A DNA stretch of 64,000 nucleotides, from positions 32,001 through 96,000 of IMG/VR virus record IMGVR_UViG_3300032224_001591. One strand, 5' to 3'. Positions 5,560 through 20,689 of the stretch are shown here, one piece after another. The notes beneath the pieces were generated by a model. It saw nothing but the letters and a program-made list of their open reading frames with translations. It searched no databases and was not told the origin of the DNA. Source of the stretch: a virus. A program made the translations under genes and the position numbers. Numbering within the stretch: the first letter of the stretch is position 1; each line of letters starts with the position of its first letter.

Positions 5560-5931
5560 ATGAATCCAGAATTTTTAAAACTAGTATCGTATTTATTTCA
5601 TTCAGCAACACAAGTTCATATATTTCATCTTCAAACAAATTCATATGCTGAACATAAAGCATTGAATAAATATTATGATAAAATCGTTGATTTGACAGAT
5701 GGTTTAATTGAGTCTTTTCAAGGTAAATATGATATCTTAAGAGATTATGAAAACTATGCTTTAGACAACTATAAAGATAATACTCAAGTCATAACATACT
5801 TTAAAGCATTATTAAAAACAGTAGAAACTTTAAGAATGTCTGTAGCAAATGATTCTTATTTACAAAACCAAATTGATACTATAGTTGAATTAATTACATC
5901 TACTTTATATAAATTAAGATTTTTACACTAA
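5560..5931 (+). CDS. Ferritin/Dps-like four-helix protein
   Basis: HIFHLQT-SYAEHKAL-YYD...DGLIE pattern and C-terminal TLYKL. Confidence 0.65.
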   Translation: MNPEFLKLVSYLFHSATQVHIFHLQTNSYAEHKALNKYYDKIVDLTDGLIESFQGKYDILRDYENYALDNYKDNTQVITYFKALLKTVETLRMSVANDSYLQNQIDTIVELITSTLYKLRFLH

Positions 5932-6431
5932 TGATCAAATTATTAGATTTATTAAGAGAAAATGATCCTAAAAAAGGTACAGGTAAAAAACCCGAAGGAT
6001 CAGGTCGTAGACTTTACACTGATGAAAATCCGAAAGATACAGTACATGTAAAATTTAAAACCGCTCAAGATATAAAAGATACTTTATCTAAAACAACGTT
6101 TAAATCAAAACCACACGCTCGTCAATCTCAAATAATTAATTTAATACATCAACGAGTAAGAGCAGCGTATAATAAAGCAAAAGATCCTGAAGTAAAATCA
6201 AGATTAAAACGTGCTTTAGATTATATTGAAAAACGTAAAGAAGCATCTAAAAAGAAAACCCAACAATTACAAAAAGAAGCTTCATCTTTAGCACAACAAG
6301 CAGCTATTGCTATCGCTAAAAAGAAAAGTGGTAAATATGATAAAGAAGGTAAACGTATAAAAGAAACAGCAAATCCACAATCAGGTAAATCATCACCTTA
6401 TGGTTCAGGATATGCTCCCGTAAAAAAATAA
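5931..6431 (+). CDS. Basic modular protein with MIKLLDLLRE leader
   Basis: 166-aa ORF with modules RRLYTDENP, AQQAAIAIAKKK and SSPYGSGY, separated by xKE linkers. Confidence 0.65.
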   Translation: MIKLLDLLRENDPKKGTGKKPEGSGRRLYTDENPKDTVHVKFKTAQDIKDTLSKTTFKSKPHARQSQIINLIHQRVRAAYNKAKDPEVKSRLKRALDYIEKRKEASKKKTQQLQKEASSLAQQAAIAIAKKKSGKYDKEGKRIKETANPQSGKSSPYGSGYAPVKK

Positions 6432-6449
6432 TATATTTATAAATAAATT

Positions 6450-6767
6450 ATGGTTAAACTTATTCACTTATTAACTGAAGCTAAAGAAAGCTTTGAAACA
6501 TTTGCTAAAAATCGTTTAGCTGGTGCCGAAAAAATTATAGCTAATGCTAAAGAAAAGGGTGGTGATGCTTTATTAACGTATAATCACTTTAAAGTAAAAC
6601 CATCTTATTACAAGAAAGCAATAGATGGTAAATTTGATAAAGAAGCTGCTCAAAAAGAATTCGAAGAAACATATAAAAAAATCTCATTAGATATGACCCA
6701 AACCGAATTTCAAAAAGAAGTTGGTCGTTTAGAGGTATTAGGTGAATTATTAATAAGAGAAAAATGA
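6450..6767 (+). CDS. Hypothetical protein with MVKLIHLLTE leader
   Basis: 105-aa ORF preceded by the TATATTTATA motif. Confidence 0.65.
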   Translation: MVKLIHLLTEAKESFETFAKNRLAGAEKIIANAKEKGGDALLTYNHFKVKPSYYKKAIDGKFDKEAAQKEFEETYKKISLDMTQTEFQKEVGRLEVLGELLIREK

Positions 6768-7177
6768 TTAAATTATCAAAAATATTAAACGAGGCAGAAT
6801 TAGATAAATGTCCTGCTCCAACTCAAAATATTGAGTTAAATTTAAAAAATAGACAAATAGCTATTGAAAAATATGGCTATGGTCCTCTTAATCCTAATGA
6901 ACCAAATATAAAGTTTTGGGAAAAAAAGGTTGAAATGTGGAATCTTGATTCTATAGAAGAAGCTAAAAAATCACGTTGTGGTAATTGTGCGGCTTTTGAT
7001 ATCACTGAAAAAACATTAGATTGTATAGCTAAAGGAATAGGTAATGATGAAGGATCAGAAGATCCATTTGATGTAATTAAAGTTGGACAATTAGGATATT
7101 GTAGATTTTTAAAATTTAAATGTGCTGCTACTCGTACCTGTGATGCTTGGGTTGTTGGAGGTCCTTTAACTGATTAA
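6764..7177 (+). CDS. Cys-rich putative metal-binding (HiPIP-like) protein with MIKLSKILNE leader
   Basis: CGNC...GYC...C...TCDAW. Confidence 0.55.
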   Translation: MIKLSKILNEAELDKCPAPTQNIELNLKNRQIAIEKYGYGPLNPNEPNIKFWEKKVEMWNLDSIEEAKKSRCGNCAAFDITEKTLDCIAKGIGNDEGSEDPFDVIKVGQLGYCRFLKFKCAATRTCDAWVVGGPLTD

Positions 7178-11105: not shown

Positions 11106-12677
11106 ATGAGTCAAGATTTAAAACAAATTATCCGACAGGAATATCTTTTATGTGCCCAAGACCCGGCGCACTTTATGAAGAAATACTGTAATATACAACA
11201 CCCACAACGTGGTCGTGTTATATTTAACTTATACCCATTTCAAGGTAAAGTATTAAATTTATGGAAGGATAATCCATATTCAATTATCCTAAAATCAAGA
11301 CAATTAGGTATATCAACATTAGCCGCAGGTTATTCTTTATGGTTAATGTTATTTCAAAAGGATAAAAACGTACTTTGTTTAGCAACAAAACAAGAAACAG
11401 CTAAAAACATGGTTACGAAGGTAAAATTCATGTATGAAAATCTACCTTCATGGCTTAAAGTACCAGCCGAAGAAAATAATAAACTAACACTCAGATTAAA
11501 TAATGGTTCTCAGATTAAAGCAGTATCAGCAGCAGGTGATGCTGGTCGATCTGAAGCCGTATCTTTGTTAATTGTCGATGAGGCCGCTTTTATTGAAAAT
11601 ATTGGTGAGATATGGGCTTCAGCACAACAAACCCTAGCAACGGGTGGTGGTGCTATTGTATTATCTACACCTTACGGTACTGGTAACTGGTTCCATCAAA
11701 CATGGGTTAAAGCAGAAAATGCTGAAAATGACTTTTTACCAATTAAATTACCTTGGTATGTTCACCCTGAACGAAATGAGGCTTGGAGAAAACGACAAGA
11801 TGAATTACTAGGTGATCCTAGATTAGCAGCACAAGAGTGTGATTGCGACTTTAGCACCTCAGGTGACGTTGTGTTTTACCCTGAATGGATTGATTTTATA
11901 AAAGAAACTACTGTACAAGATCCAATGGAAAGAAGAGGTGCAGATCAAAATCTTTGGATTTGGGAACAAGCCGATTATTCTAGAGACTATATGGTTTTAG
12001 CCGATGTAGCCAGAGGTGATGGTAAAGACTTTTCCGCATTTCACGTTATTGACATTGCTACAAACACACAAGTAGCAGAATATAAAGGCCAAATGCCTCC
12101 AAAAGAATTTGGATATTTTGTAACCGCTATTGCTACCGAATACAACCAAGCATTATTAGTATGTGAAAATGCCTCTATTGGTTGGGCTGCTATAGATGCA
12201 ATATTGGAAAGAGGATACAGAAATGTATATTATTCTCCAAAAACAGAAGCACTAACTGTAGATTCATTCTTTAACAAGTATGAAAATAGTGATAGTGTAA
12301 CTCCTGGTTTTACAATGTCACTTAAAACACGTCCTTTAGTAATAAATAAATTTAAAGAATATATTGGGGATAGATCAGTTACAATTCGTTCTAAACGTTT
12401 ACTTGAAGAAATGAAAGTATTTGTTTGGAAAAATGGTAGAGCTGAAGCACAAACCGGTTACAATGACGATTTAGTAATGTCATTCGGTATTGGAATGTAT
12501 TTAAGAGATACATCATTAAAATTTCAATCACAAAGCCAAGATCTTACCCGCGCAGCATTAGGTAATATGGGAAAATCAAATCCTACACAAGGTGCTTATT
12601 TTGCATCAGGACGCGATAATCCATACCATATTGATAATGGAGCTAAAGGAAAGGAAGATATTAGTTGGCTTTTTTAA
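11106..12677 (+). CDS. terL: Terminase large subunit (T4 gp17-like)
   Basis: LYPFQ, KSRQLGIST Walker A, LIVDEAAF Walker B, STPYG, ADVARGDGKD and NDDLVM nuclease motifs. Confidence 0.95.
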   Translation: MSQDLKQIIRQEYLLCAQDPAHFMKKYCNIQHPQRGRVIFNLYPFQGKVLNLWKDNPYSIILKSRQLGISTLAAGYSLWLMLFQKDKNVLCLATKQETAKNMVTKVKFMYENLPSWLKVPAEENNKLTLRLNNGSQIKAVSAAGDAGRSEAVSLLIVDEAAFIENIGEIWASAQQTLATGGGAIVLSTPYGTGNWFHQTWVKAENAENDFLPIKLPWYVHPERNEAWRKRQDELLGDPRLAAQECDCDFSTSGDVVFYPEWIDFIKETTVQDPMERRGADQNLWIWEQADYSRDYMVLADVARGDGKDFSAFHVIDIATNTQVAEYKGQMPPKEFGYFVTAIATEYNQALLVCENASIGWAAIDAILERGYRNVYYSPKTEALTVDSFFNKYENSDSVTPGFTMSLKTRPLVINKFKEYIGDRSVTIRSKRLLEEMKVFVWKNGRAEAQTGYNDDLVMSFGIGMYLRDTSLKFQSQSQDLTRAALGNMGKSNPTQGAYFASGRDNPYHIDNGAKGKEDISWLF

Positions 12678-12701
12678 TATTTATTCGTATATTATAATCA
12701 T

Positions 12702-14597
12702 ATGGCTGATACAAGTATTTTTACCAGATTGCAGAGACTGTTTTCAACAGATGTAATCATTCGTAATGATGGCGGAGATCAACTGAAAGTAATGGATACT
12801 AACACTATTCAACAATCAGGAGAATTTGCTACAAACGCACTAGTAGATAGATTTAACCGAATTTATTCGATTAATGCTACCTCAATGTATGGTGCTCAAT
12901 TTAACTTAAATTATCGTTATTTAAGAACCCAAATCTACTCAGACTACGATATCATGGATACAGATGCTATTATTGCTTCTGCCTTGGATATTCTGTCCGA
13001 AGAATCGACTCTTAAAAATGACATGGGTGAAGTACTTCAAATTAGAAGTAATAACGAAGATATTCAAAAATCATTATATAATTTATTCTATGATGTAATT
13101 AATATTGAATTTAATTTAAGTTGGTGGATTAGACAACTATGCAAATATGGTGATTTTTTCTTAAAATTAGATATTTCTGAAAAATTTGGTGTTTATAATG
13201 TTATTCCAATAACACCATATCATATTGAAAGAGAAGAAGGATATGATAAAGACAATCCATTCTCAGTTAAATTTAAATATTCCCCTCAAGGATTTTATTC
13301 TGGCACTTCAGGTTATTATAGTGTAGCAGGAACGGATCCTAAAGATACACCAGGTATCTATTTTGATAATTATGAAATGGCACATTTCCGTTTATTATCA
13401 GATTTTAACTATTTACCTTATGGTAGATCTTATATTGAACCAGCTCGCCGTTTGTATAAACAATATGCGTTGATGGAAGATGCAATGTTGATCCATCGTA
13501 TTGTTCGTTCCCCAGACAAACGTATTTTCTATTTAAATGTTGGTTCTATACCTCCCAATGAAGTAGAAAACTTCATGCAAAAAACTATTTCTACAATGAA
13601 ACGTACTCCGTTCATTGATCAAGAAACGGGACAATATAATTTAAAATATAACGTACAAAATCTATTAGAGGATTATTTTATACCTGTTCGTAATGGTGAC
13701 CAAGTAACTAAAATTGATACTTTACCTGGTTTACAATATACAGCTATTGAGGATGTTACTTACTTAAGAGATAAACTATTTGCTGCTTTAAAAGTACCTA
13801 AAGCATTTATGGGTTATGAAAAAGACTTAACTGGTAAAGCAACACTAGCAGCTGAAGACATCAGATTTGCTCGTACAATTGATAAAATTCAACGTATTGT
13901 ATTATCCGAATTATATAAAATAGCATTAGTACATTTATATACCCAAGGTTATACCTCAGAACAATTAACTAATTTTGAATTAAACTTAACTACACCTTCA
14001 ATCATATACGATCAAGAAAAGATTGCATTATTGACACAAAAAGTAGAATTAGCTCAAAAGATAATGGAATCTAAATTATTACCTACAGATTGGATTTACG
14101 ATAACATATTCCATTTATCACAAGACCAATACGATGAATATCGTGATATGACTGTTGAGGATGCTAAACGTGATTTCCGTATAAAACAAATTACTGATGA
14201 AGGTAATGATCCTAAAGTAACAGGTAAATCTTATGGTACACCTCATGATTTAGCTTTAGCATATGGTAAAGGCAGAATGGGAAGTAATCCTGAAAACGTA
14301 CCTGATGGATACGATAGTGATTTAAAATTAGGTCGTCCTGAAGAAACAGGAACTGATCGTAACCATCAAGATAATGCGTTTGGTAAAGATAGATTAGGCA
14401 CAGTAGCTATGAAAAAAGATGACCAAGAAAAATACGGTAATCCAAATTATAAAGGTGGTTCACCACTAGCTCTTGAAACAGCTCAAGCCGTTTACGCAAA
14501 AAATAAAACATTAATTGAGAGTTTAGGTAAAGCTCCGTTGTTTACCAAAGAAATAGACAATACTACGCTTCTAAACGAAGATCAATTAAAGGGGTAA
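12702..14597 (+). CDS. Portal protein (T4 gp20-like)
   Basis: YGRSYIE...MEDAMLIHRIVRSPDKRIFY...EDYFIP...IDTLPG...LFAALKVP. Confidence 0.93.
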   Translation: MADTSIFTRLQRLFSTDVIIRNDGGDQLKVMDTNTIQQSGEFATNALVDRFNRIYSINATSMYGAQFNLNYRYLRTQIYSDYDIMDTDAIIASALDILSEESTLKNDMGEVLQIRSNNEDIQKSLYNLFYDVINIEFNLSWWIRQLCKYGDFFLKLDISEKFGVYNVIPITPYHIEREEGYDKDNPFSVKFKYSPQGFYSGTSGYYSVAGTDPKDTPGIYFDNYEMAHFRLLSDFNYLPYGRSYIEPARRLYKQYALMEDAMLIHRIVRSPDKRIFYLNVGSIPPNEVENFMQKTISTMKRTPFIDQETGQYNLKYNVQNLLEDYFIPVRNGDQVTKIDTLPGLQYTAIEDVTYLRDKLFAALKVPKAFMGYEKDLTGKATLAAEDIRFARTIDKIQRIVLSELYKIALVHLYTQGYTSEQLTNFELNLTTPSIIYDQEKIALLTQKVELAQKIMESKLLPTDWIYDNIFHLSQDQYDEYRDMTVEDAKRDFRIKQITDEGNDPKVTGKSYGTPHDLALAYGKGRMGSNPENVPDGYDSDLKLGRPEETGTDRNHQDNAFGKDRLGTVAMKKDDQEKYGNPNYKGGSPLALETAQAVYAKNKTLIESLGKAPLFTKEIDNTTLLNEDQLKG

Positions 14598-14630
14598 TAA
14601 TTTTTATATATTTATAACAAAAACTAGAGA

Positions 14631-15491
14631 ATGAATATTAAACATTCTAAATATAAGAATACGGGTATACTTTTTGAATTATTAGTTAGACAGATCACAG
14701 CGGATACTTTATCCGGTAAAGAATCAAAAGCTACCCCTATTCTTAAAAAATTCTTTGTTAAAACGGAGTTAGGCAAAGAATATAAACTATATGAAACTAT
14801 TTTAAGTAAAAAGCATTTATCGGAAGGTAAAGCTGAGATAGTTATCAACACTATAATCGAATCATCTAAGTCATTAAATAAAGGATCTTTAAAAAGACAA
14901 AAATACAATCTTATTAAAGAAATATCTAAACATTACAATGTTGATGAATTCTTTAAAACTAAATTACCTAACTATAAGGCACAAGCAGCTTTATATACAT
15001 TGTTAGAAATTTATAATAGTGATAATTTATCTAACCCAGACCAAATAATTGCAAATAAAATATCTTTACTTGAAACATTAACCAATAAACAAGTTGATGA
15101 AAAACAAGTTAAAGATCAATTATTAGAAGAATTTAAAACATACGATCAAGATTTACGTATTTTAACTTACCGTGTATTATTAGAAAAATTTAATGGTAAA
15201 TACTCTAGTTTAAACAAAAATCAAAAAATGGTTCTTAAAGAGTTTATCAATTCAATTGATTCTACTCCTAAATTAAGATCATTTTACAATACTAAAATTA
15301 ACGAAATTAAATCATCATTACTTAGTCTAAACAATAAAGTAGCTGATAAAGCAGTTAAAATCAAAATCAACGAAGTATCGAATTTCTTAGTTGAATTAGG
15401 AAAAACAGCAAATGTGGGTAATGATGATTTAGTTAATTTGTTACAATATTATGAATTATTAGAAGAACTTACTAATATACATGGCAAGTAA
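14631..15491 (+). CDS. Helical head morphogenesis protein, function unknown
   Basis: 286-aa ORF between portal and protease, with the late motif upstream. Confidence 0.65.
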   Translation: MNIKHSKYKNTGILFELLVRQITADTLSGKESKATPILKKFFVKTELGKEYKLYETILSKKHLSEGKAEIVINTIIESSKSLNKGSLKRQKYNLIKEISKHYNVDEFFKTKLPNYKAQAALYTLLEIYNSDNLSNPDQIIANKISLLETLTNKQVDEKQVKDQLLEEFKTYDQDLRILTYRVLLEKFNGKYSSLNKNQKMVLKEFINSIDSTPKLRSFYNTKINEIKSSLLSLNNKVADKAVKIKINEVSNFLVELGKTANVGNDDLVNLLQYYELLEELTNIHGK

Positions 15492-16113
15492 TAAACAATT
15501 AGCAGATAAATTAGCTAAAAAACTTAAAGAAGTAAGTGCAACGGGTACAGGCGCAAGTTTTACTCCGGGTAGTGGCGAACAAGTTGCTACTCCTTTTGCC
15601 TTTAACTCAAATAAAAAAGCTAATGGATCTCAAGGCGCTAAATATTCATACAAATTAGGATATAAATTAGCACCTAAACAACCTATGGAAGAAACTAATC
15701 CAGGAGCATCACTAGGTAAAGGACCATCAGCTGGAAAAACAGGTGTAAAAAATAGCTATTACACTAAATTAGGATTTAAAAATGTTAATCCAAAAGAATT
15801 AGCTAAAAATGCTAAATGGGTTGATACAAAATATTTATGGAAGGAAGATCAAACATTATCTGAAGATACTAATGTTGAAGAATATATTAATACATTAGGT
15901 ATTGATAGTCCTGAATTAAAAAAATTTATCTCTAGTCGTATTTTAGGATTCGATAAAGTAGAAGATAAATTAAACGAATTACTTCCATTGTTACAAAAAG
16001 CAAAGCAAAAAACAATGGATGAATATAAACAAAATCCAAGTTTTAATGTGTTGTATGGTACAGACCTAGCAGCGGATTATTTGGATGATTTAATTGAAAT
16101 GTTTAAAAACTAA
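15481..16113 (+). CDS. Head protein carrying a copy of the capsid N-arm motif
   Basis: EVSATGTGASFTPGSGEQ matches major capsid residues 59-76 at 15 of 18 positions. Confidence 0.65.
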   Translation: MASNKQLADKLAKKLKEVSATGTGASFTPGSGEQVATPFAFNSNKKANGSQGAKYSYKLGYKLAPKQPMEETNPGASLGKGPSAGKTGVKNSYYTKLGFKNVNPKELAKNAKWVDTKYLWKEDQTLSEDTNVEEYINTLGIDSPELKKFISSRILGFDKVEDKLNELLPLLQKAKQKTMDEYKQNPSFNVLYGTDLAADYLDDLIEMFKN

Positions 16114-16118
16114 ATAAA

Positions 16119-16385
16119 ATGGCAAACATACCAGTAAATGCAACCGCAATAACAAAATTCCAAGGACAATCTGTAACAGGATCTTTTGCAGGATTTGTTG
16201 TGTGCCCTAACACATCAACTTCTCCTCAAGGAACAGTAGCTCATTTCCATGGTTTAAAAGATGGAAATGGAAACGAATTAGTAGTATCCGCTTCTTCTTT
16301 ATATTTTTTACCAGGATATTATCCAATATTTGTAACTAGTGCTTCTTTAGATGCTACAAGTAACAATGTAATATTTTTTACTTAA
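16119..16385 (+). CDS. Small beta-rich putative virion surface protein
   Basis: 88-aa ORF with TGS/SAS motifs. Confidence 0.55.
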   Translation: MANIPVNATAITKFQGQSVTGSFAGFVVCPNTSTSPQGTVAHFHGLKDGNGNELVVSASSLYFLPGYYPIFVTSASLDATSNNVIFFT

Positions 16386-16399
16386 AAAAACAATATACA

Positions 16400-16987
16400 A
16401 TGGCAACATTACAAGACCAATATAATCAAATTCAAGAAGGTAAAGGTGATAAAAACCACTTCTTAAAACAAGCACGTCATTTATTTCCTGATTACGTTAA
16501 TCACTATAATAATTTTGACGAAACTGTTAAAATTTTAAAAGGTAAAAGTATTTTATCTGAACATAGAGGTGGTTTAGGTATGGTATCTACAAACGGTAAA
16601 CGTGTTGAAGATTGGATTACTATATTTCAAGAAGCAGTTAAAGCAACAGAAACAAAAGTATCTAAAGAAGTATTAGATACTCAAGCTCATAATTGGGATA
16701 CTAAAGATATGAAAGAAATTGACAATTTATATGGTCAAGCTTTTTTAAATGGATTTTATGATGAGATGAAAGATCCTAAAAATCAAGATAAAACAGTAGA
16801 TCAAGTAAAACAACTTGTAGCTAAAAATTTAGGTAAAGATATATTATATTATACTACTAAAGCTCAATTCGGTGTTAAAGGTATTGGATATCAAACAGAA
16901 GCACCAGGTTTAGGTACTCCTAAAGAACCAAAAGGAAAATATAAAGCAAGTGGATACGGTGATTTACCTAAAAATAAAAAAGACTAA
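16400..16987 (+). CDS. Hypothetical head-module protein
   Basis: 195-aa ORF coupled to the protease gene by a TAATG overlap. Confidence 0.6.
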   Translation: MATLQDQYNQIQEGKGDKNHFLKQARHLFPDYVNHYNNFDETVKILKGKSILSEHRGGLGMVSTNGKRVEDWITIFQEAVKATETKVSKEVLDTQAHNWDTKDMKEIDNLYGQAFLNGFYDEMKDPKNQDKTVDQVKQLVAKNLGKDILYYTTKAQFGVKGIGYQTEAPGLGTPKEPKGKYKASGYGDLPKNKKD

Positions 16988-17589
16988 TGAAACAAGTATT
17001 AATCGAAACCATACCATTTAGCGTTTCACCAATACAATTACATGAAGGTGTTAAAGCACCATCAGGTAATCCTTTGGTTGAAGGTATTTTAGCTACAGCT
17101 GAAGTAAAAAACGGTAATGGTAGATATTATTCTAAAGATTTATGGGAACGCGAAATAGACAAATATATGTCTAGCGTTAAAGAAAACAGAGCAACAGGCG
17201 AATTAGACCACCCAGATTCAACTATTATTTCCCTTAAAAATGTATCTCATATTATTAGAGATATTTGGTGGAATGGAGATAAAGTAATGGGTAAAATAGA
17301 AATCTTACCAACTGTATCAGGTAATATCTTAAAAGCACTTATTGACAATAATGTAATGGTAGGTGTATCATCTCGTGGTATGGGTAGTTTAAAACAAATA
17401 GGCGAAACCATGGAAGTACAAGATGATTTTGAATTACTATGTTGGGATTTCGTTTCAACACCTTCTAATCCAGGTTCATATATGAATGTTATTAAAGAAG
17501 GAAAAGAATTTAAACCATACCCATACAATAAAGTAAATAGTTTATTAACAGAAATTTTATGTGCTAATGGCACTTGTCCAATAATATAG
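16987..17589 (+). CDS. Prohead core protease (T4 gp21-like)
   Basis: NGNGRYY, GELDHP, VSH, GVSSRGMGS, DFVSTPS. Confidence 0.93.
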   Translation: MKQVLIETIPFSVSPIQLHEGVKAPSGNPLVEGILATAEVKNGNGRYYSKDLWEREIDKYMSSVKENRATGELDHPDSTIISLKNVSHIIRDIWWNGDKVMGKIEILPTVSGNILKALIDNNVMVGVSSRGMGSLKQIGETMEVQDDFELLCWDFVSTPSNPGSYMNVIKEGKEFKPYPYNKVNSLLTEILCANGTCPII

Positions 17590-17623
17590 GCAATACCCCC
17601 TCCTTCGATAGTATCGTAGGACC

Positions 17624-17657
17624 AATCCTAGCCCCGTAAGGCTAGGATTTTTTTTTT
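17624..17657 (+). terminator. Intrinsic terminator
   Basis: AATCCTAGCC-CCGTAA-GGCTAGGATT plus T-run. Confidence 0.75.
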
Positions 17658-17794
17658 AATCCTGTTGCGTTTTGAAGAATCCTAATATATGTATATTGGA
17701 ATATGCGATTATCTATATCGCATTTATTTAATCAATTCTATTACGCTTCCACATCTAATAAGCGTACTTCCAAAACAAAAATTTGAGGAAAATT

Positions 17795-18925
17795 ATGGCA
17801 AACAGAGACATTCTGAAAGAAGCTATTGCTGACGCTAAATCAATTAAAGAAGCAGCAATCGCAAACGCAAAAGTCGCTCTAGAAGAAGCCTTTACTCCGT
17901 ATCTAAAAGAAAAATTATCAGCTAAATTAGCTGAAATTGACGCTATGGACGAAGAAATGGATGAATCAAAAGAGATGGACGAAGCTGAAATTGACGAGTA
18001 TGGTGATGAACACCCAATGTCGACAAAAGACGCTTTAAAAGAAAAATCTATGGACGAAGAAATGGATGAAACCATGGACGAAGAAATGGACGAAATGAAA
18101 AAATCTATGGACGAAATGGACTTAGATGAGTTATTAAGAGAATTAGAAGACATGGAAGAAAACATGGACGAAGTAATCAACGATCCTAAAGGTCCAGGTG
18201 CTCACGGTAACGTTGCTCCTCCAGGACAATCTGACACTGACTTAAACGAAGCTAAAGAAGGCGACGAAGAAGAAGACGTTGAAATCGACATCGAAAACAT
18301 GTCTGAAGAAGATCTTAAATCATTTATTGAAGGCGTTATCGCTGACATGGTTGCGGCTGGCGAATTAGAAGCTGGTCACGAAGGTATGGAAGACGAAGAA
18401 GGCGCTGAAGATGAAGAAAGTGAAGAAGAAGTTTCATTAGACGAACTTATGGACGAAATGGAAGAAGGCTCAGGCTACGATGAAATGGCTAAAAATCAAG
18501 CAATGAAAAACTCTCATTACGAAAAAATGAAAGAAGAAATGGACGAAATGAAGAAAGAACTTGAAGAAGCTTATGAGGCTTTAAATAAAGTTAAATCTGA
18601 AATTAACGAAGTTAATCTTTTAAATTCTAAACTTCTTTACTTAAACAAAGTGTTTAAAGCTAAAAACTTAACTGAATCACAAAAAGTTAAAGTATTAGCT
18701 GCTTTTGACAAAGCAACAAGTAAAAAAGAAGCAAAATTAGTTTACGAAACAGTAATGGAAAGTTTAAACAACACAAACACTACAAAACGTCCAGTAACTG
18801 AATCCGTAAGAGGTATGGCTTCTAAAGTTATAAGCGGTACTACTAATAATAGTACAAAACAACCAATTATTGAAGTTAATGCTGCTTTCGAAAGAATGCA
18901 AAAATTAGCTGGAATTAAAAAGTAA
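17795..18925 (+). CDS. Prohead scaffold/core protein (T4 gp22-like position)
   Basis: Lies between protease and capsid; very acidic with MDE repeats and coiled coil; ends FERMQKLAGIKK. ATG at 17795 is preferred to TTG at 17783. Confidence 0.8.
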   Translation: MANRDILKEAIADAKSIKEAAIANAKVALEEAFTPYLKEKLSAKLAEIDAMDEEMDESKEMDEAEIDEYGDEHPMSTKDALKEKSMDEEMDETMDEEMDEMKKSMDEMDLDELLRELEDMEENMDEVINDPKGPGAHGNVAPPGQSDTDLNEAKEGDEEEDVEIDIENMSEEDLKSFIEGVIADMVAAGELEAGHEGMEDEEGAEDEESEEEVSLDELMDEMEEGSGYDEMAKNQAMKNSHYEKMKEEMDEMKKELEEAYEALNKVKSEINEVNLLNSKLLYLNKVFKAKNLTESQKVKVLAAFDKATSKKEAKLVYETVMESLNNTNTTKRPVTESVRGMASKVISGTTNNSTKQPIIEVNAAFERMQKLAGIKK

Positions 18926-18961
18926 ATTTAAACAATTAAAAAACAACTAAAAACTAAAACG

Positions 18962-20689
18962 ATGAGTCAAATTCAATCATTATTAGAATCTGCTAACCCA
19001 TACAAATCGTTACAAAGCGATGCAGCTAAATTAGCTAGCAAATGGGCAAAAACAGGCCTTTTAGAAGGCTTAGACGAGACAAACAGAAATAACATGTCTC
19101 TTATGCTTGAAAATCAAGCAAAACAATTAGTAAGCGAGGTATCATCTACTGGTACAGGTGCTTTCTTTACTCCAGGACAAGGTGAACAATGGGCTGGTAT
19201 CGCTTTACCGTTAGTACGTAAAGTGTTCGGTCAAATCGCATCTAAAGAATTCGTAAGCGTTCAACCGATGAACTTACCTTCTGGTCTTGTGTTCTTCTTA
19301 GATTTCCAATATGGAACTGGAAAGAATCCATTCGCAGTTAACAGTTCAGTTTATGGTACTACTGGTTCTCAGTATCCATTTGCTACTCCATCTGCATCTG
19401 GTGGTCTTTATGGCGCTGGTCGTTTCACGTATTCTACCAACCAATTTAGTGCTTCTGTTAATTTAACAGGTTCGGTTTCAGGTTCAGCATTACCTGCTAA
19501 CGTTGCAGCTAGTACAGCTACAGTAGTTACAGCTTCTTGGTCTAACTTGAACTTTGATTCTGATTACTCTGCTTCAGTTGCAGCAAATCAAATCTATGCA
19601 GTTACTGTTCCAACAGCTTCTACTGCTTTATCTGCATTTGACCAAGACGCAGTTCGTGGTTTTACTACTTACTACTCTGTAGGTACAGGCGTTACTGGTG
19701 CTACATTTGGTACAGGTTCAATTTTACCTGCATTTACCACTTATAACTACACTGCTAACACAATCACTTTCTACTACACTGCTTCTACAGCAATTACTGC
19801 AGCTAACCTTTCTGGTTCAATGACTATCTTCTATAATAAACAAACTGACGATAACCGTCGTGGTGATTTTGAAGATTCTACAGCAACTACGTTCTCTATT
19901 CCGAATGCGCAAAGTACTAGTACTATCGTAATTCCTGAGATCAACATCAGTATGCAATCACAAGAAATTACAGCTAAAACTAAAAAATTAAAAGCTGTAT
20001 GGACTCCTGAGTTTGCACAAGATTTGAATGCTTACCAAAATATCGATGCTGAAGCTGAATTAACTAACATGTTAAGCGAGTATATCTCTATGGAGATTGA
20101 TCTTGAAATCTTAGATATGTTGATTGAAGACGCTGCAGCTGGTACTGAATACTGGTCAGCAATCAATAACAACGTTTATAACGGTTCAACAGGTGCTTTC
20201 TCAACTGGTGGTTCTGCTTTCTATAACACTCAAGGACAATGGTTCCAAACTTTAGGAACAAAAATCCAAAAATTAAGCAATAAAATTCACCAATTAACTT
20301 TAAGAGGTGGTGCTAATTTCATGGTAATTTCTCCTACAGTAGCAACTATCATCGAATCTATCCCTGGATTTGCTTCTAACAACAATGGCGAAGCTGATCA
20401 AATGGAATACGCTTTCGGTGTACAAAAAGTTGGTTCATTCAATGGTCGTTACAAAGTTTACAAAAACCCTTACATGACTGAAAACACTATCTTATTAGGA
20501 TACCGTGGTACTCAGTTCTTGGAAGCAGGTGCTGTATTCGCTCCGTACATTCCGTTGATCATGACTCCATTAGTGTACGATCCAAATACCTTCACTCCAC
20601 GTAAAGGTCTATTAACTCGTTACGCTAAGAAAATGTTACGTCCTGAATTCTACGCTAAGATCTATGTTAATGGTTTAAATACCCTTTAA
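18962..20689 (+). CDS. Major capsid protein (T4 gp23-like) with Ser/Thr-rich insertion
   Basis: LPLVRKVF, VQPMNLPSGLVF, AKTKKLKAVWTPEFAQDL, DAEAEL, APYIPL, TRYA. Confidence 0.95.
   Translation: MSQIQSLLESANPYKSLQSDAAKLASKWAKTGLLEGLDETNRNNMSLMLENQAKQLVSEVSSTGTGAFFTPGQGEQWAGIALPLVRKVFGQIASKEFVSVQPMNLPSGLVFFLDFQYGTGKNPFAVNSSVYGTTGSQYPFATPSASGGLYGAGRFTYSTNQFSASVNLTGSVSGSALPANVAASTATVVTASWSNLNFDSDYSASVAANQIYAVTVPTASTALSAFDQDAVRGFTTYYSVGTGVTGATFGTGSILPAFTTYNYTANTITFYYTASTAITAANLSGSMTIFYNKQTDDNRRGDFEDSTATTFSIPNAQSTSTIVIPEINISMQSQEITAKTKKLKAVWTPEFAQDLNAYQNIDAEAELTNMLSEYISMEIDLEILDMLIEDAAAGTEYWSAINNNVYNGSTGAFSTGGSAFYNTQGQWFQTLGTKIQKLSNKIHQLTLRGGANFMVISPTVATIIESIPGFASNNNGEADQMEYAFGVQKVGSFNGRYKVYKNPYMTENTILLGYRGTQFLEAGAVFAPYIPLIMTPLVYDPNTFTPRKGLLTRYAKKMLRPEFYAKIYVNGLNTL

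What the first reader, a model, noticed from the sequence alone, without database searches (positions are those of the whole stretch)
15529..15582. A non-capsid protein carries a near-exact copy of the presumed mature capsid N-arm
Seen: ORF 15481 has LKE-VSATGTGASFTPGSGEQ and the major capsid has VSE-VSSTGTGAFFTPGQGEQ (19136-19189). That is 15/18 identical with many synonymous codon differences, so conservation is at the protein level. Known: T4 gp23 is matured by cleavage at E65, close to E59 here. Inference: after cleavage both expose the same N-terminal peptide. The smaller protein may occupy N-arm sites in the shell, for example at the portal vertex, which would be a second mimicry-based docking mode.
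Basis: partly seen in the sequence, partly recalled or inferred. Interest (0 to 1): 0.75.

Follow-up and report, generated by a model that had tools for sequence, protein, structure and literature searches.

The report
Head protein copies capsid's N-terminal arm
In an uncultured T4-like phage, a small unnamed head-cluster protein carries, just after a predicted protease cut site, a copy of the first 17 residues of the mature capsid protein; across about 90 related phage contigs the two copies change together at the protein level, which points to selected mimicry in capsid assembly, though what it does is untested.

Summary
ORF 15481-16113 (210 aa) and the gp23-like capsid protein (18962-20689) share 15 of 18 residues starting at a hydrophobic-x-Glu site. 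These are the only two copies in the 147-kb phage genome. BLASTP gives E 7e-7 and the DNA is only about 65% identical.

The shared segment sits where T4 gp23* has its 'N-fist'. In the capsid protein it is a hypervariable island between invariant flanks.

Across 91 related loci (75 distinct arm pairs), each small protein's arm resembles its own genome's capsid arm more than other genomes' arms. Identity is 0.55 against 0.41, and 0 of 10000 permutations reach the observed value. On path-disjoint pairs the Wilcoxon p is 0.002. Arm lengths also correlate.

Codon identity at shared residues equals the codon-usage expectation (277 against 276), so there is no recent gene conversion. Within clades both arms are under purifying selection.

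My best reading is a protease-processed head protein whose new N-terminus mimics the capsid arm and engages the arm's partner, most likely acceptor sites on the shell. Binding is untested. In a minority of lineages the arm is cut to 5-10 residues.

This scan earlier noted an analogous copy in T4 gene 61.1 on other DNA. I re-tested it (17/37 identity, E 1e-9).

The parts
15481..15531 (+). Leader of the small protein (M1-E17): basic amphipathic helix ending L-K-E, the predicted prohead-protease site
   Evidence: AF2 models a helix at residues 3-19. A hydrophobic-x-Glu stands at this alignment position in 60 of the 63 first-set loci that have a separate small-protein hit; in the other three none was found. 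E17 is invariant in alignment A1. Cleavage itself is inferred.
15532..15582 (+). Arm of the small protein (V18-Q34), the copy of the capsid arm
   Evidence: Predicted disordered, pLDDT about 30. Co-varies with the capsid arm.
15583..15840 (+). Rest of the N-module (V35-W120): an aromatic-Ala-Thr-Pro-x-Ala-Phe motif, Lys-rich stretches, two Tyr-Lys-Leu-Gly-aromatic-Lys repeats and a Gly-rich insert
   Evidence: Conserved columns in A1. This module also occurs as a free-standing protein of about 71-91 aa in other phages.
15868..16113 (+). C-terminal helical domain (about residues 130-210) and the stop codon
   Evidence: AF2 on alignment A3 gives mean pLDDT 83 with a long helix and a packing helix. 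No Foldseek match in PDB or BFVD. It also occurs as a free-standing protein of 83-88 aa.
18962..19138 (+). Capsid-protein propeptide (M1-E59), ending in the invariant block E-N-Q-A-K-Q-L-V-x-E
   Evidence: Pfam Gp23 and PHROG major head protein. Invariant columns E50-V57 and E59 in A2.
19139..19189 (+). Capsid arm (V60-Q76), positional equivalent of the T4 gp23* N-fist; hypervariable between clades
   Evidence: No invariant column lies between 60 and 76, while both flanks are invariant. The same 23-residue spacing to VQPMN is seen in T4. N-fist definition from PMC7136217.
19190..20689 (+). Conserved N-arm (from W77) and the HK97-type body of the capsid protein
16987..17589 (+). gp21-like prohead serine protease (Peptidase_S77), the presumed enzyme that cuts both proteins
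   Evidence: Pfam E 4.8e-29 and PHROG head maturation protease E 5.4e-57.
17783..18925 (+). Acidic scaffold-like protein, a candidate third partner under the rival reading
   Evidence: Position and composition. Syntenic with the scaffold genes of immuto and Mel-JY01. No family match.
12702..14597 (+). gp20-like portal protein
   Evidence: Pfam Portal_T4 E 3e-68.

Best explanation
ORF 15481 encodes a member of a large, unnamed family of head-module proteins of T4-like phages from environmental metagenomes. It is made with a 17-residue basic helical leader ending in L-K-E. The gp21-like prohead protease most likely removes the leader inside the prohead, as it removes the first 59 residues of the capsid protein after V-S-E (inferred). 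Cleavage exposes a disordered N-terminal arm that selection keeps alike to the capsid protein's own new N-terminus, the segment equivalent to the T4 gp23* N-fist (shown: likeness, co-variation, purifying selection, no recent gene conversion). The arm therefore most likely engages the same partner as the capsid arm. My preferred partner is the N-fist acceptor surface on neighbouring capsid subunits. That would tether the small protein's basic middle part and helical C-domain to the shell wherever a capsid arm is missing, for example around the portal (inferred, untested).
For: The two copies are real, unique in the genome and beyond chance. The head module is T4-type, with an S77 protease. A hydrophobic-x-Glu precedes the arm in 60 of the 63 first-set loci that have a separate small-protein hit, and E59 with its flanks is invariant in the capsid protein. 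The capsid arm is a variable island between invariant blocks, yet each small protein's arm tracks its own capsid arm. In the first 60 genomes, identity is 0.56 within a genome and 0.41 between genomes, 0 of 10000 permutations reach the observed sum, and the own capsid ranks a median 6th of 60. Over 75 distinct pairs the figures are 0.546 against 0.405, again with 0 of 10000 permutations. The four-point test on tree-path-disjoint pairs gives 14+/4- (p 0.015). On the larger set it gives 15+/8-, Wilcoxon p 0.0024, with gains up to +62 and losses no worse than -9. Arm lengths correlate (Spearman 0.58). Lineage-specific shared oddities occur: an Ile/Ser/Asn-rich arm type in both proteins, the block SLSGGGVAGG in both (L113, L116), and motifs unique to L016 and L030 that appear in both proteins. 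At 596 positions with the same residue, the same codon is used 277 times against 276.0 expected (z 0.09), so recent gene conversion does not explain the likeness. Within clades, synonymous codon differences equal or exceed non-synonymous ones in five of six arm comparisons, so the arms are under constraint. Other predicted protease substrates in the window (leaders at 5931, 6450, 6764) have unrelated residues after the Glu, so the arm is not needed for cutting. [quoted passage not shown] T4 gene 61.1 is an independent analogue that matches T4's own gp23 across E65 into the N-fist (17/37, E 1e-9).
Against: There is no experimental evidence that the protein is in the head, is cleaved, or binds anything. 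In several lineages, including the cultured relatives, the small protein's arm is only about 5-10 residues and resembles the capsid arm weakly, while the rest of the protein is kept. Full-length mimicry is therefore dispensable for the family's core function. Coupling is seen mainly between clades. Among close relatives the four-point differences are near zero or slightly negative, so the number of independent co-switches is modest, roughly six to ten. In T4 the N-fist ends up on the outer surface, which is awkward for a protein presumed to start inside the prohead. One lineage (L113) shows 27 of 30 identical bases in the shared block, so occasional conversion may be how new arm types spread.
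Confidence: 0.45

Rival explanations
1. The shared arm is a prohead-stage recognition element. Both proteins present the same segment to a third assembly factor inside the unexpanded prohead, either the scaffold core or an exosite of the protease. This would load them together or cut them at the same time. After maturation the likeness has no role.
For: In T4 the capsid N-terminal region lies inside the prohead and is thought to touch the scaffolding core before expansion, and head-length mutations map there, including A66D (PMC9546572). The arm starts exactly at the predicted cut site in both proteins. Earlier scan notes report capsid-arm copies on prohead proteases of other phages, read there as shared cleavage modules (not tested here).
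Against: Other predicted substrates in the same genome have unrelated residues after the Glu. The residues before the cut, which should carry core binding, are invariant in the capsid protein but variable and dissimilar in the small protein. The similar part is the part both proteins keep after cleavage.
Confidence: 0.25
2. The likeness comes from concerted evolution by occasional ectopic gene conversion between two short homologous tracts 3.6 kb apart, with no selection for matching. The arms are simply flexible linkers next to cut sites.
For: T4-like phages recombine readily (general knowledge). The co-switches are few and block-like. L113 has 27 of 30 identical bases in the shared block.
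Against: There is no excess of identical codons over 596 shared residues in 57 genomes (z 0.09), which I estimate caps recently converted positions at roughly 8%. Both arms are under purifying selection within clades, so replacing many residues at once should be harmful unless matching itself is what matters. Ser codons differ by family (AGT against TCA) in the window.
Confidence: 0.15
3. Both arms are recognition sites for a common modifying enzyme or for another reader of Ser/Thr/Gly-rich peptides, such as a phage glycosyltransferase, and they follow that reader's specificity.
For: The arms are rich in Ser, Thr and Gly.
Against: Nothing links those enzymes to head proteins, and arm types differ in ways that are not obviously tied to Ser/Thr content. 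No test was run.
Confidence: 0.05

Closest known systems
Phage T4 gene 61.1 product (54 aa, annotated hypothetical)
   Same: A short leader ending hydrophobic-x-Glu is followed by a copy of that phage's own capsid protein from the E65 cut site through the N-fist (17/37 identical, E 1e-9). It is a small free-standing protein and is uncharacterised (no functional paper in the held library).
   Different: Apart from each one's likeness to its own capsid arm, there is no detectable sequence relation to the family here (hhalign probability 0.2%). It is encoded beside the primase gene rather than in the head cluster. It lacks the basic aromatic middle part and the helical C-domain.
T4 internal proteins IPI, IPII, IPIII and Alt, which carry a capsid targeting sequence
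   Same: A short N-terminal leader removed by gp21 after L/I-x-E inside the prohead (PMC9026906). In the long variants here, extra domains lie between a first K-L-K-E site and the arm, like cargo.
   Different: The mature N-termini of the IPs are not known to resemble gp23* (my own knowledge). There is no sequence or family match.
N-terminal arm of the T4 vertex protein gp24* (residues 11-20)
   Same: After a 10-residue leader is removed, a short N-terminal arm docks on the outer periphery of a neighbouring gp23* hexamer (PMC9546572). This is a precedent for a second protein's processed N-terminus occupying capsid-arm territory.
   Different: gp24 is a full HK97-fold paralogue of gp23. The protein here shares only about 30 residues with the capsid protein and is half disordered, half helical. 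This genome has only one gp23-like gene.
T4 prohead core proteins gp67 and gp68
   Same: Same gene position between portal and protease. Small proteins processed by gp21 (PMC9958956).
   Different: No similarity: hhalign probability 0.6% for gp68 and 0.06% for gp67.
Shared processed leaders of capsid and scaffold proteins in staphylococcal phage 80alpha (my own recollection, not checked here)
   Same: Two head proteins of one phage share a short N-terminal sequence around a common cleavage site.
   Different: There the shared part is the removed leader. Here it is the retained N-terminus, and it co-varies with the capsid across many lineages.

Membership tests
Substrates of T4-type (S77, gp21-like) prohead proteases | Encoded by a phage that has an S77 protease, in or near the head module | tested here: met
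   Peptidase_S77 at 16987-17589. The small gene lies between portal and protease.
Substrates of T4-type (S77, gp21-like) prohead proteases | Conserved hydrophobic-x-Glu site | tested here: met
   L-K-E17 in the window. An equivalent site is found in 60 of the 63 first-set loci that have a separate small-protein hit. E17 is invariant in A1.
Substrates of T4-type (S77, gp21-like) prohead proteases | Demonstrated cleavage in proheads | not testable with these tools
   Needs N-terminal sequencing or mass spectrometry.
CTS-bearing internal head proteins (T4 IPI-III type) | Leader of 10-20 residues removed after L/I-x-E | tested here: met
   A 17-residue leader predicted helical. Removal is inferred.
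CTS-bearing internal head proteins (T4 IPI-III type) | Sequence relation to known IPs or a named family | tested here: not met
   No Pfam or PHROG match. No tblastn hit in 50,697 phage records.
CTS-bearing internal head proteins (T4 IPI-III type) | Presence in the mature head and ejection into the host | not testable with these tools
   No proteome found for any relative.
gp23/gp24 capsid-protein paralogues (HK97 fold) | HK97-type body detectable by profile or fold | tested here: not met
   Pfam Gp23 hits only the capsid gene in the genome. The likeness is limited to 30 residues. AF2 shows a disordered N-half and a helical C-domain.
T4 gp67/gp68 prohead core proteins | Sequence similarity | tested here: not met
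   hhalign probabilities 0.06% and 0.6%.
T4 gp67/gp68 prohead core proteins | Gene position between portal and protease | tested here: met
Capsid-arm mimic peptides (T4 gene 61.1 type, known only from this scan's notes) | Leader, cut site, then a copy of the phage's own capsid N-fist | tested here: met
   Window. T4 61.1 against gp23.
Capsid-arm mimic peptides (T4 gene 61.1 type, known only from this scan's notes) | The copy tracks the capsid arm across related phages | tested here: met
   for this family. The matching claim for 61.1 was not re-tested.
Capsid-arm mimic peptides (T4 gene 61.1 type, known only from this scan's notes) | Common descent with gene 61.1 | tested here: not met
   hhalign probability 0.2%. 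The two are analogues, not detectable homologues.

The most novel reading that the evidence does not exclude
T4-like phages of at least two distant lineages encode free-standing, protease-released copies of the capsid protein's N-fist: this family here and T4 gene 61.1. These copies co-evolve with the capsid. They would be a general, unrecognised class of arm mimics that fill or regulate capsid-arm acceptor sites during maturation, for example by capping the sites left open at the portal vertex or by timing expansion.
Probability: 0.3. Interest if true: 0.8.

Novelty: new variant of a known kind. Interest (0 to 1): 0.65.

Why it matters
T4 head assembly is among the best studied assembly pathways, yet no described component works by copying the capsid protein's mature N-terminus. 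This family is large: 437 cluster representatives at 50% identity. It has no name in Pfam or PHROGs. It also carries a clear evolutionary signal, because a short disordered arm keeps matching a hypervariable capsid segment while the codons drift freely. That is a specific, testable pointer to a peptide-docking interaction in the capsid or prohead. It gives a reason to re-examine T4 gene 61.1, which can be studied genetically. If the arm does dock on the shell, it would also be a natural, portable tag for attaching cargo to T4-type capsids.

Tried and rejected
- **Complex prediction.** Mature capsid protein (60-575, alignment A2) with the mature small protein (18-210, A1) scored 0.00, 'no answer'. 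This is neither support nor evidence against. One capsid chain cannot form the multi-subunit site.
- **Whole-protein fold.** AF2 of the whole small protein gave pLDDT 50, so it was not used for fold search.
- **C-domain fold search.** The C-domain model is confident but has no Foldseek match in PDB or BFVD.
- **Family and sequence searches.** Pfam and PHROGs gave no family for the small protein, its neighbours 14631, 16119 and 16400, or the scaffold. There was no Pfam domain in the long N-extensions. tblastn of the small protein against phage records found nothing. The ESM Atlas returned only viral hypothetical clusters.
- **T4 core proteins.** hhalign against T4 gp67 and gp68 found nothing.
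- **Short-arm variants.** The look-up of encoding contigs for these returned contigs too short to include the capsid gene. I replaced this with the search for related loci.
- **Literature.** Searches for virion proteomes of immuto or Mel-JY01, for earlier descriptions of capsid-arm mimicry, and for gp61.1 function found nothing useful.
- **Rejected readings.** Chance or low-complexity likeness is rejected. A nucleotide-level element is rejected because DNA identity is about 65% with changed Ser codon families. A gp24-like vertex paralogue is rejected.

Full report
**What is there.**
The window belongs to a 147,248-bp IMG/VR virus record judged 93% complete. Positions 11106-20689 hold a T4-type head module, all on the + strand:
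- large terminase
- gp20-like portal (Pfam Portal_T4, E 3e-68)
- three to four unnamed small genes
- a gp21-like S77 prohead protease (E 4.8e-29)
- an acidic scaffold-like protein
- a gp23-like major capsid protein (E 9.6e-74)

The nearest cultured relatives by capsid protein are Flavobacterium phage immuto (55%) and Microcystis phage Mel-JY01 (49%). The genome has a single gp23-like gene, so no gp24-type paralogue is detectable.

**The observation.**
The 210-aa ORF at 15481-16113 reads L-K-E at residues 15-17 and then a 17-residue Gly/Ser/Thr-rich segment. The capsid protein reads V-S-E at 57-59 and then an almost identical segment. These are the only two copies in six frames of the window and of the whole genome. 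BLASTP gives 17/30 identity at E 7e-7, and no other part of the two proteins is alike. By my count the DNA matches at 35 of 54 positions, with one Ser coded AGT in one gene and TCA in the other. The likeness is therefore at the protein level.

**Where the segment sits in capsid terms.**
In T4, gp21 removes 65 residues from gp23. The next 25-26 residues form the N-fist, followed by the conserved N-arm (PMC7136217; PMC9958956). In both T4 and this phage, exactly 23 residues separate the end of this segment from the conserved VQPMN block. The 17-residue arm here is therefore the positional equivalent of the N-fist, and E59 is the equivalent of E65. In 33 aligned capsid proteins the blocks on both sides are invariant (E50-V57, E59; W77-P83, V85-F89). 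No column between 60 and 76 is invariant. The arm is a variable island.

**The family.**
The small protein has no Pfam or PHROG family and no tblastn hit in 50,697 phage records. It does have hundreds of metagenomic relatives: 402 proteins in the word-indexed search and 437 cluster representatives at 50% identity with a profile search. The conserved plan is as follows:
- a basic helical leader
- a hydrophobic-x-Glu site
- the arm
- an aromatic-Ala-Thr-Pro-x-Ala-Phe motif
- Lys- and Tyr-rich stretches
- a helical C-domain (AF2 pLDDT 83)

The N-half is predicted disordered. Three kinds of variant occur:
- Long forms, up to 590 aa. Most carry extra domains between a first K-L-K-E site and the second site before the arm. 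One of the long forms read in full (P0214) carries its extra domain after the arm module.
- Split forms with only the N-module (about 71-91 aa).
- Split forms with only the C-domain (83-88 aa in the examples read).

**Co-variation.**
I fetched 80 loci through the capsid protein and 90 more through two divergent small proteins, then extracted both arms wherever both genes were present.
- In the first 60 genomes, mean identity between a small protein's arm and its own capsid arm is 0.56, against 0.41 for other genomes' capsid arms. The own capsid ranks a median 6th of 60, and none of 10000 permutations reaches the observed sum.
- With 91 loci and 75 distinct pairs, the figures are 0.546 against 0.405, again with 0 of 10000 permutations. 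Arm lengths correlate at Spearman 0.58.
- Under plain duplication and independent divergence, a paralogue should be no closer to its own genome's partner than to any other. A four-point comparison on pairs joined by non-overlapping tree paths is therefore a fair test. It gives 14 positive, 4 negative and 2 ties (p 0.015).
- On the larger set it gives 15, 8 and 3, Wilcoxon p 0.0024. Gains reach +62 BLOSUM units and losses are no worse than -9.
- The capsid-body tree shows about six clades, each with its own arm type shared by both proteins.
- Lineage-specific oddities appear in both proteins: an Ile/Ser/Asn-rich type, the block SLSGGGVAGG in L113 and L116, and motifs unique to L016 and L030. 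In L149 the capsid's otherwise invariant Trp is replaced by the Tyr that the small proteins carry.
- The coupling is strong between clades and weak among close relatives, so the independent co-switches number perhaps six to ten.

**Selection or conversion.**
At 596 aligned positions where the two arms have the same residue, in 57 distinct genomes, the same codon is used 277 times. Each locus's codon usage predicts 276.0 (z 0.09). Recent gene conversion therefore does not maintain the likeness; I estimate that at most roughly 8% of shared positions could be recently converted. Within clades, synonymous codon differences equal or exceed non-synonymous ones in five of the six arm comparisons, which means purifying selection. 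One lineage (L113) has 27 of 30 identical bases in the shared block, so conversion may sometimes be how a new arm type is copied across. Even so, a wholesale change in a constrained segment is hard to explain unless matching itself is favoured.

**How it probably works.**
Shown: the two proteins share the retained side of a conserved hydrophobic-x-Glu site, and that side is kept matched by selection.
Inferred: the S77 protease cuts both, and both then expose the same N-terminal peptide.

Other predicted substrates in the window carry leaders of the type M-I-K-L-L...L-x-E at 5931, 6450 and 6764. Their residues after the Glu are unrelated (lead from earlier notes), so the arm is not needed for cutting. 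The residues before the cut are invariant in the capsid protein but variable and dissimilar in the small protein. The natural reading is that the small protein's arm engages whatever the capsid arm engages.

In T4 the N-fist is disordered inside the cleaved prohead. On expansion it is externalised and packs against four subunits of two capsomers, and it helps form the Soc site. It stays undocked in the five subunits that face the portal. The processed gp24* N-terminus docks on neighbouring hexamers. A mimic arm could therefore fill arm sites that lack a capsid neighbour and so tether the rest of the small protein to the shell. I put this at about 0.45.

The main rival, at 0.25, is that both arms are read by a third factor in the prohead (scaffold or protease) and that the likeness has no role after maturation. 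Neutral conversion gets 0.15 and a common modifying enzyme 0.05.

**Limits.**
Nothing shows that the protein is in the particle. In several lineages the small protein's arm is only about 5-10 residues while the capsid arm stays at 17-22 (L090-092, L096, L109-111, L137, L141-143, L147). The same holds in the cultured relatives, where the small arm is 8-9 residues. There the likeness shrinks to a generic x-Ser-x-Ser/Thr-Gly start. The family's core function therefore does not need the full copy. The only complex prediction gave no verdict.

**Comparison with what is known.**
By position and processing the protein resembles T4 prohead core and internal proteins, but it shows no sequence relation to gp67 or gp68. 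It is not a capsid paralogue.

Earlier notes of this scan pointed to T4 gene 61.1. I fetched it and confirmed the claim. Its 54-aa product has a leader ending I-K-E and then aligns to gp23 residues 57-93, across E65 and through the N-fist: 17/37 identical, E 1e-9. It is not detectably related to the family here, and I found no functional study of it. Two unrelated small proteins in two distant T4-like lineages thus each copy their own capsid's N-fist behind a protease site. That argues for a general function rather than an accident.

I found no published description of such mimicry in the held library, but the search was narrow.

**Verdict.**
This is a new, unnamed family and a new variant of protease-processed head proteins, with a well-supported evolutionary signal and an unproven mechanism.

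Noticed in passing
L179:6967-7131 (-), phage T4 gene 61.1: The 54-aa hypothetical protein has a CTS-like leader ending I-K-E and then aligns to T4 gp23 residues 57-93 across the E65 cut site and the N-fist (17/37 identical, E 1e-9). It is an analogue of the window's finding in the model phage. The lead came from earlier scan notes.
   Followed up: partly
window 5931-7177 (+): Three consecutive ORFs (5931, 6450, 6764) start with near-identical 10-residue leaders of the form M-I/V-K-L-x-x-x-L-x-E, like capsid targeting sequences, followed by unrelated proteins.
   Followed up: partly
L087:8-2791 (+): In a related phage the portal gene is 927 aa, with Pfam Intein_splicing and HNH_3 hits inside Portal_T4, so it looks like an intein in the portal gene.
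   Followed up: no
L002:6188-6415 (+), Microcystis phage Mel-JY01: A ribosomal protein S21 (RpsU) gene is annotated inside the head module, between the protease and the scaffold.
   Followed up: no
L001:7728-8969 (+), Flavobacterium phage immuto: The acidic scaffold-position protein is annotated 'DNA polymerase phi-like protein'. This is probably a low-complexity misannotation.
   Followed up: no
L149:8094-9725 (+): This capsid protein has Tyr in place of the otherwise invariant Trp that follows the arm, so both its capsid protein and its small protein read G-V-G-G-Q-Y-A.
   Followed up: partly
window 14631-15491, 16119-16385, 16400-16987 (+): Three further head-module ORFs have no family match. 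The 286-aa ORF next to the portal and the 195-aa ORF before the protease have clear counterparts in immuto, and the 286-aa ORF also has one in Mel-JY01. Their roles are unknown.
   Followed up: no
L109:4811-5621 (+) and similar loci: The small-protein gene is split into two adjacent ORFs, and the second ORF has gained its own K-Y-K-L-K-type leader. Each module therefore seems to need its own leader.
   Followed up: no
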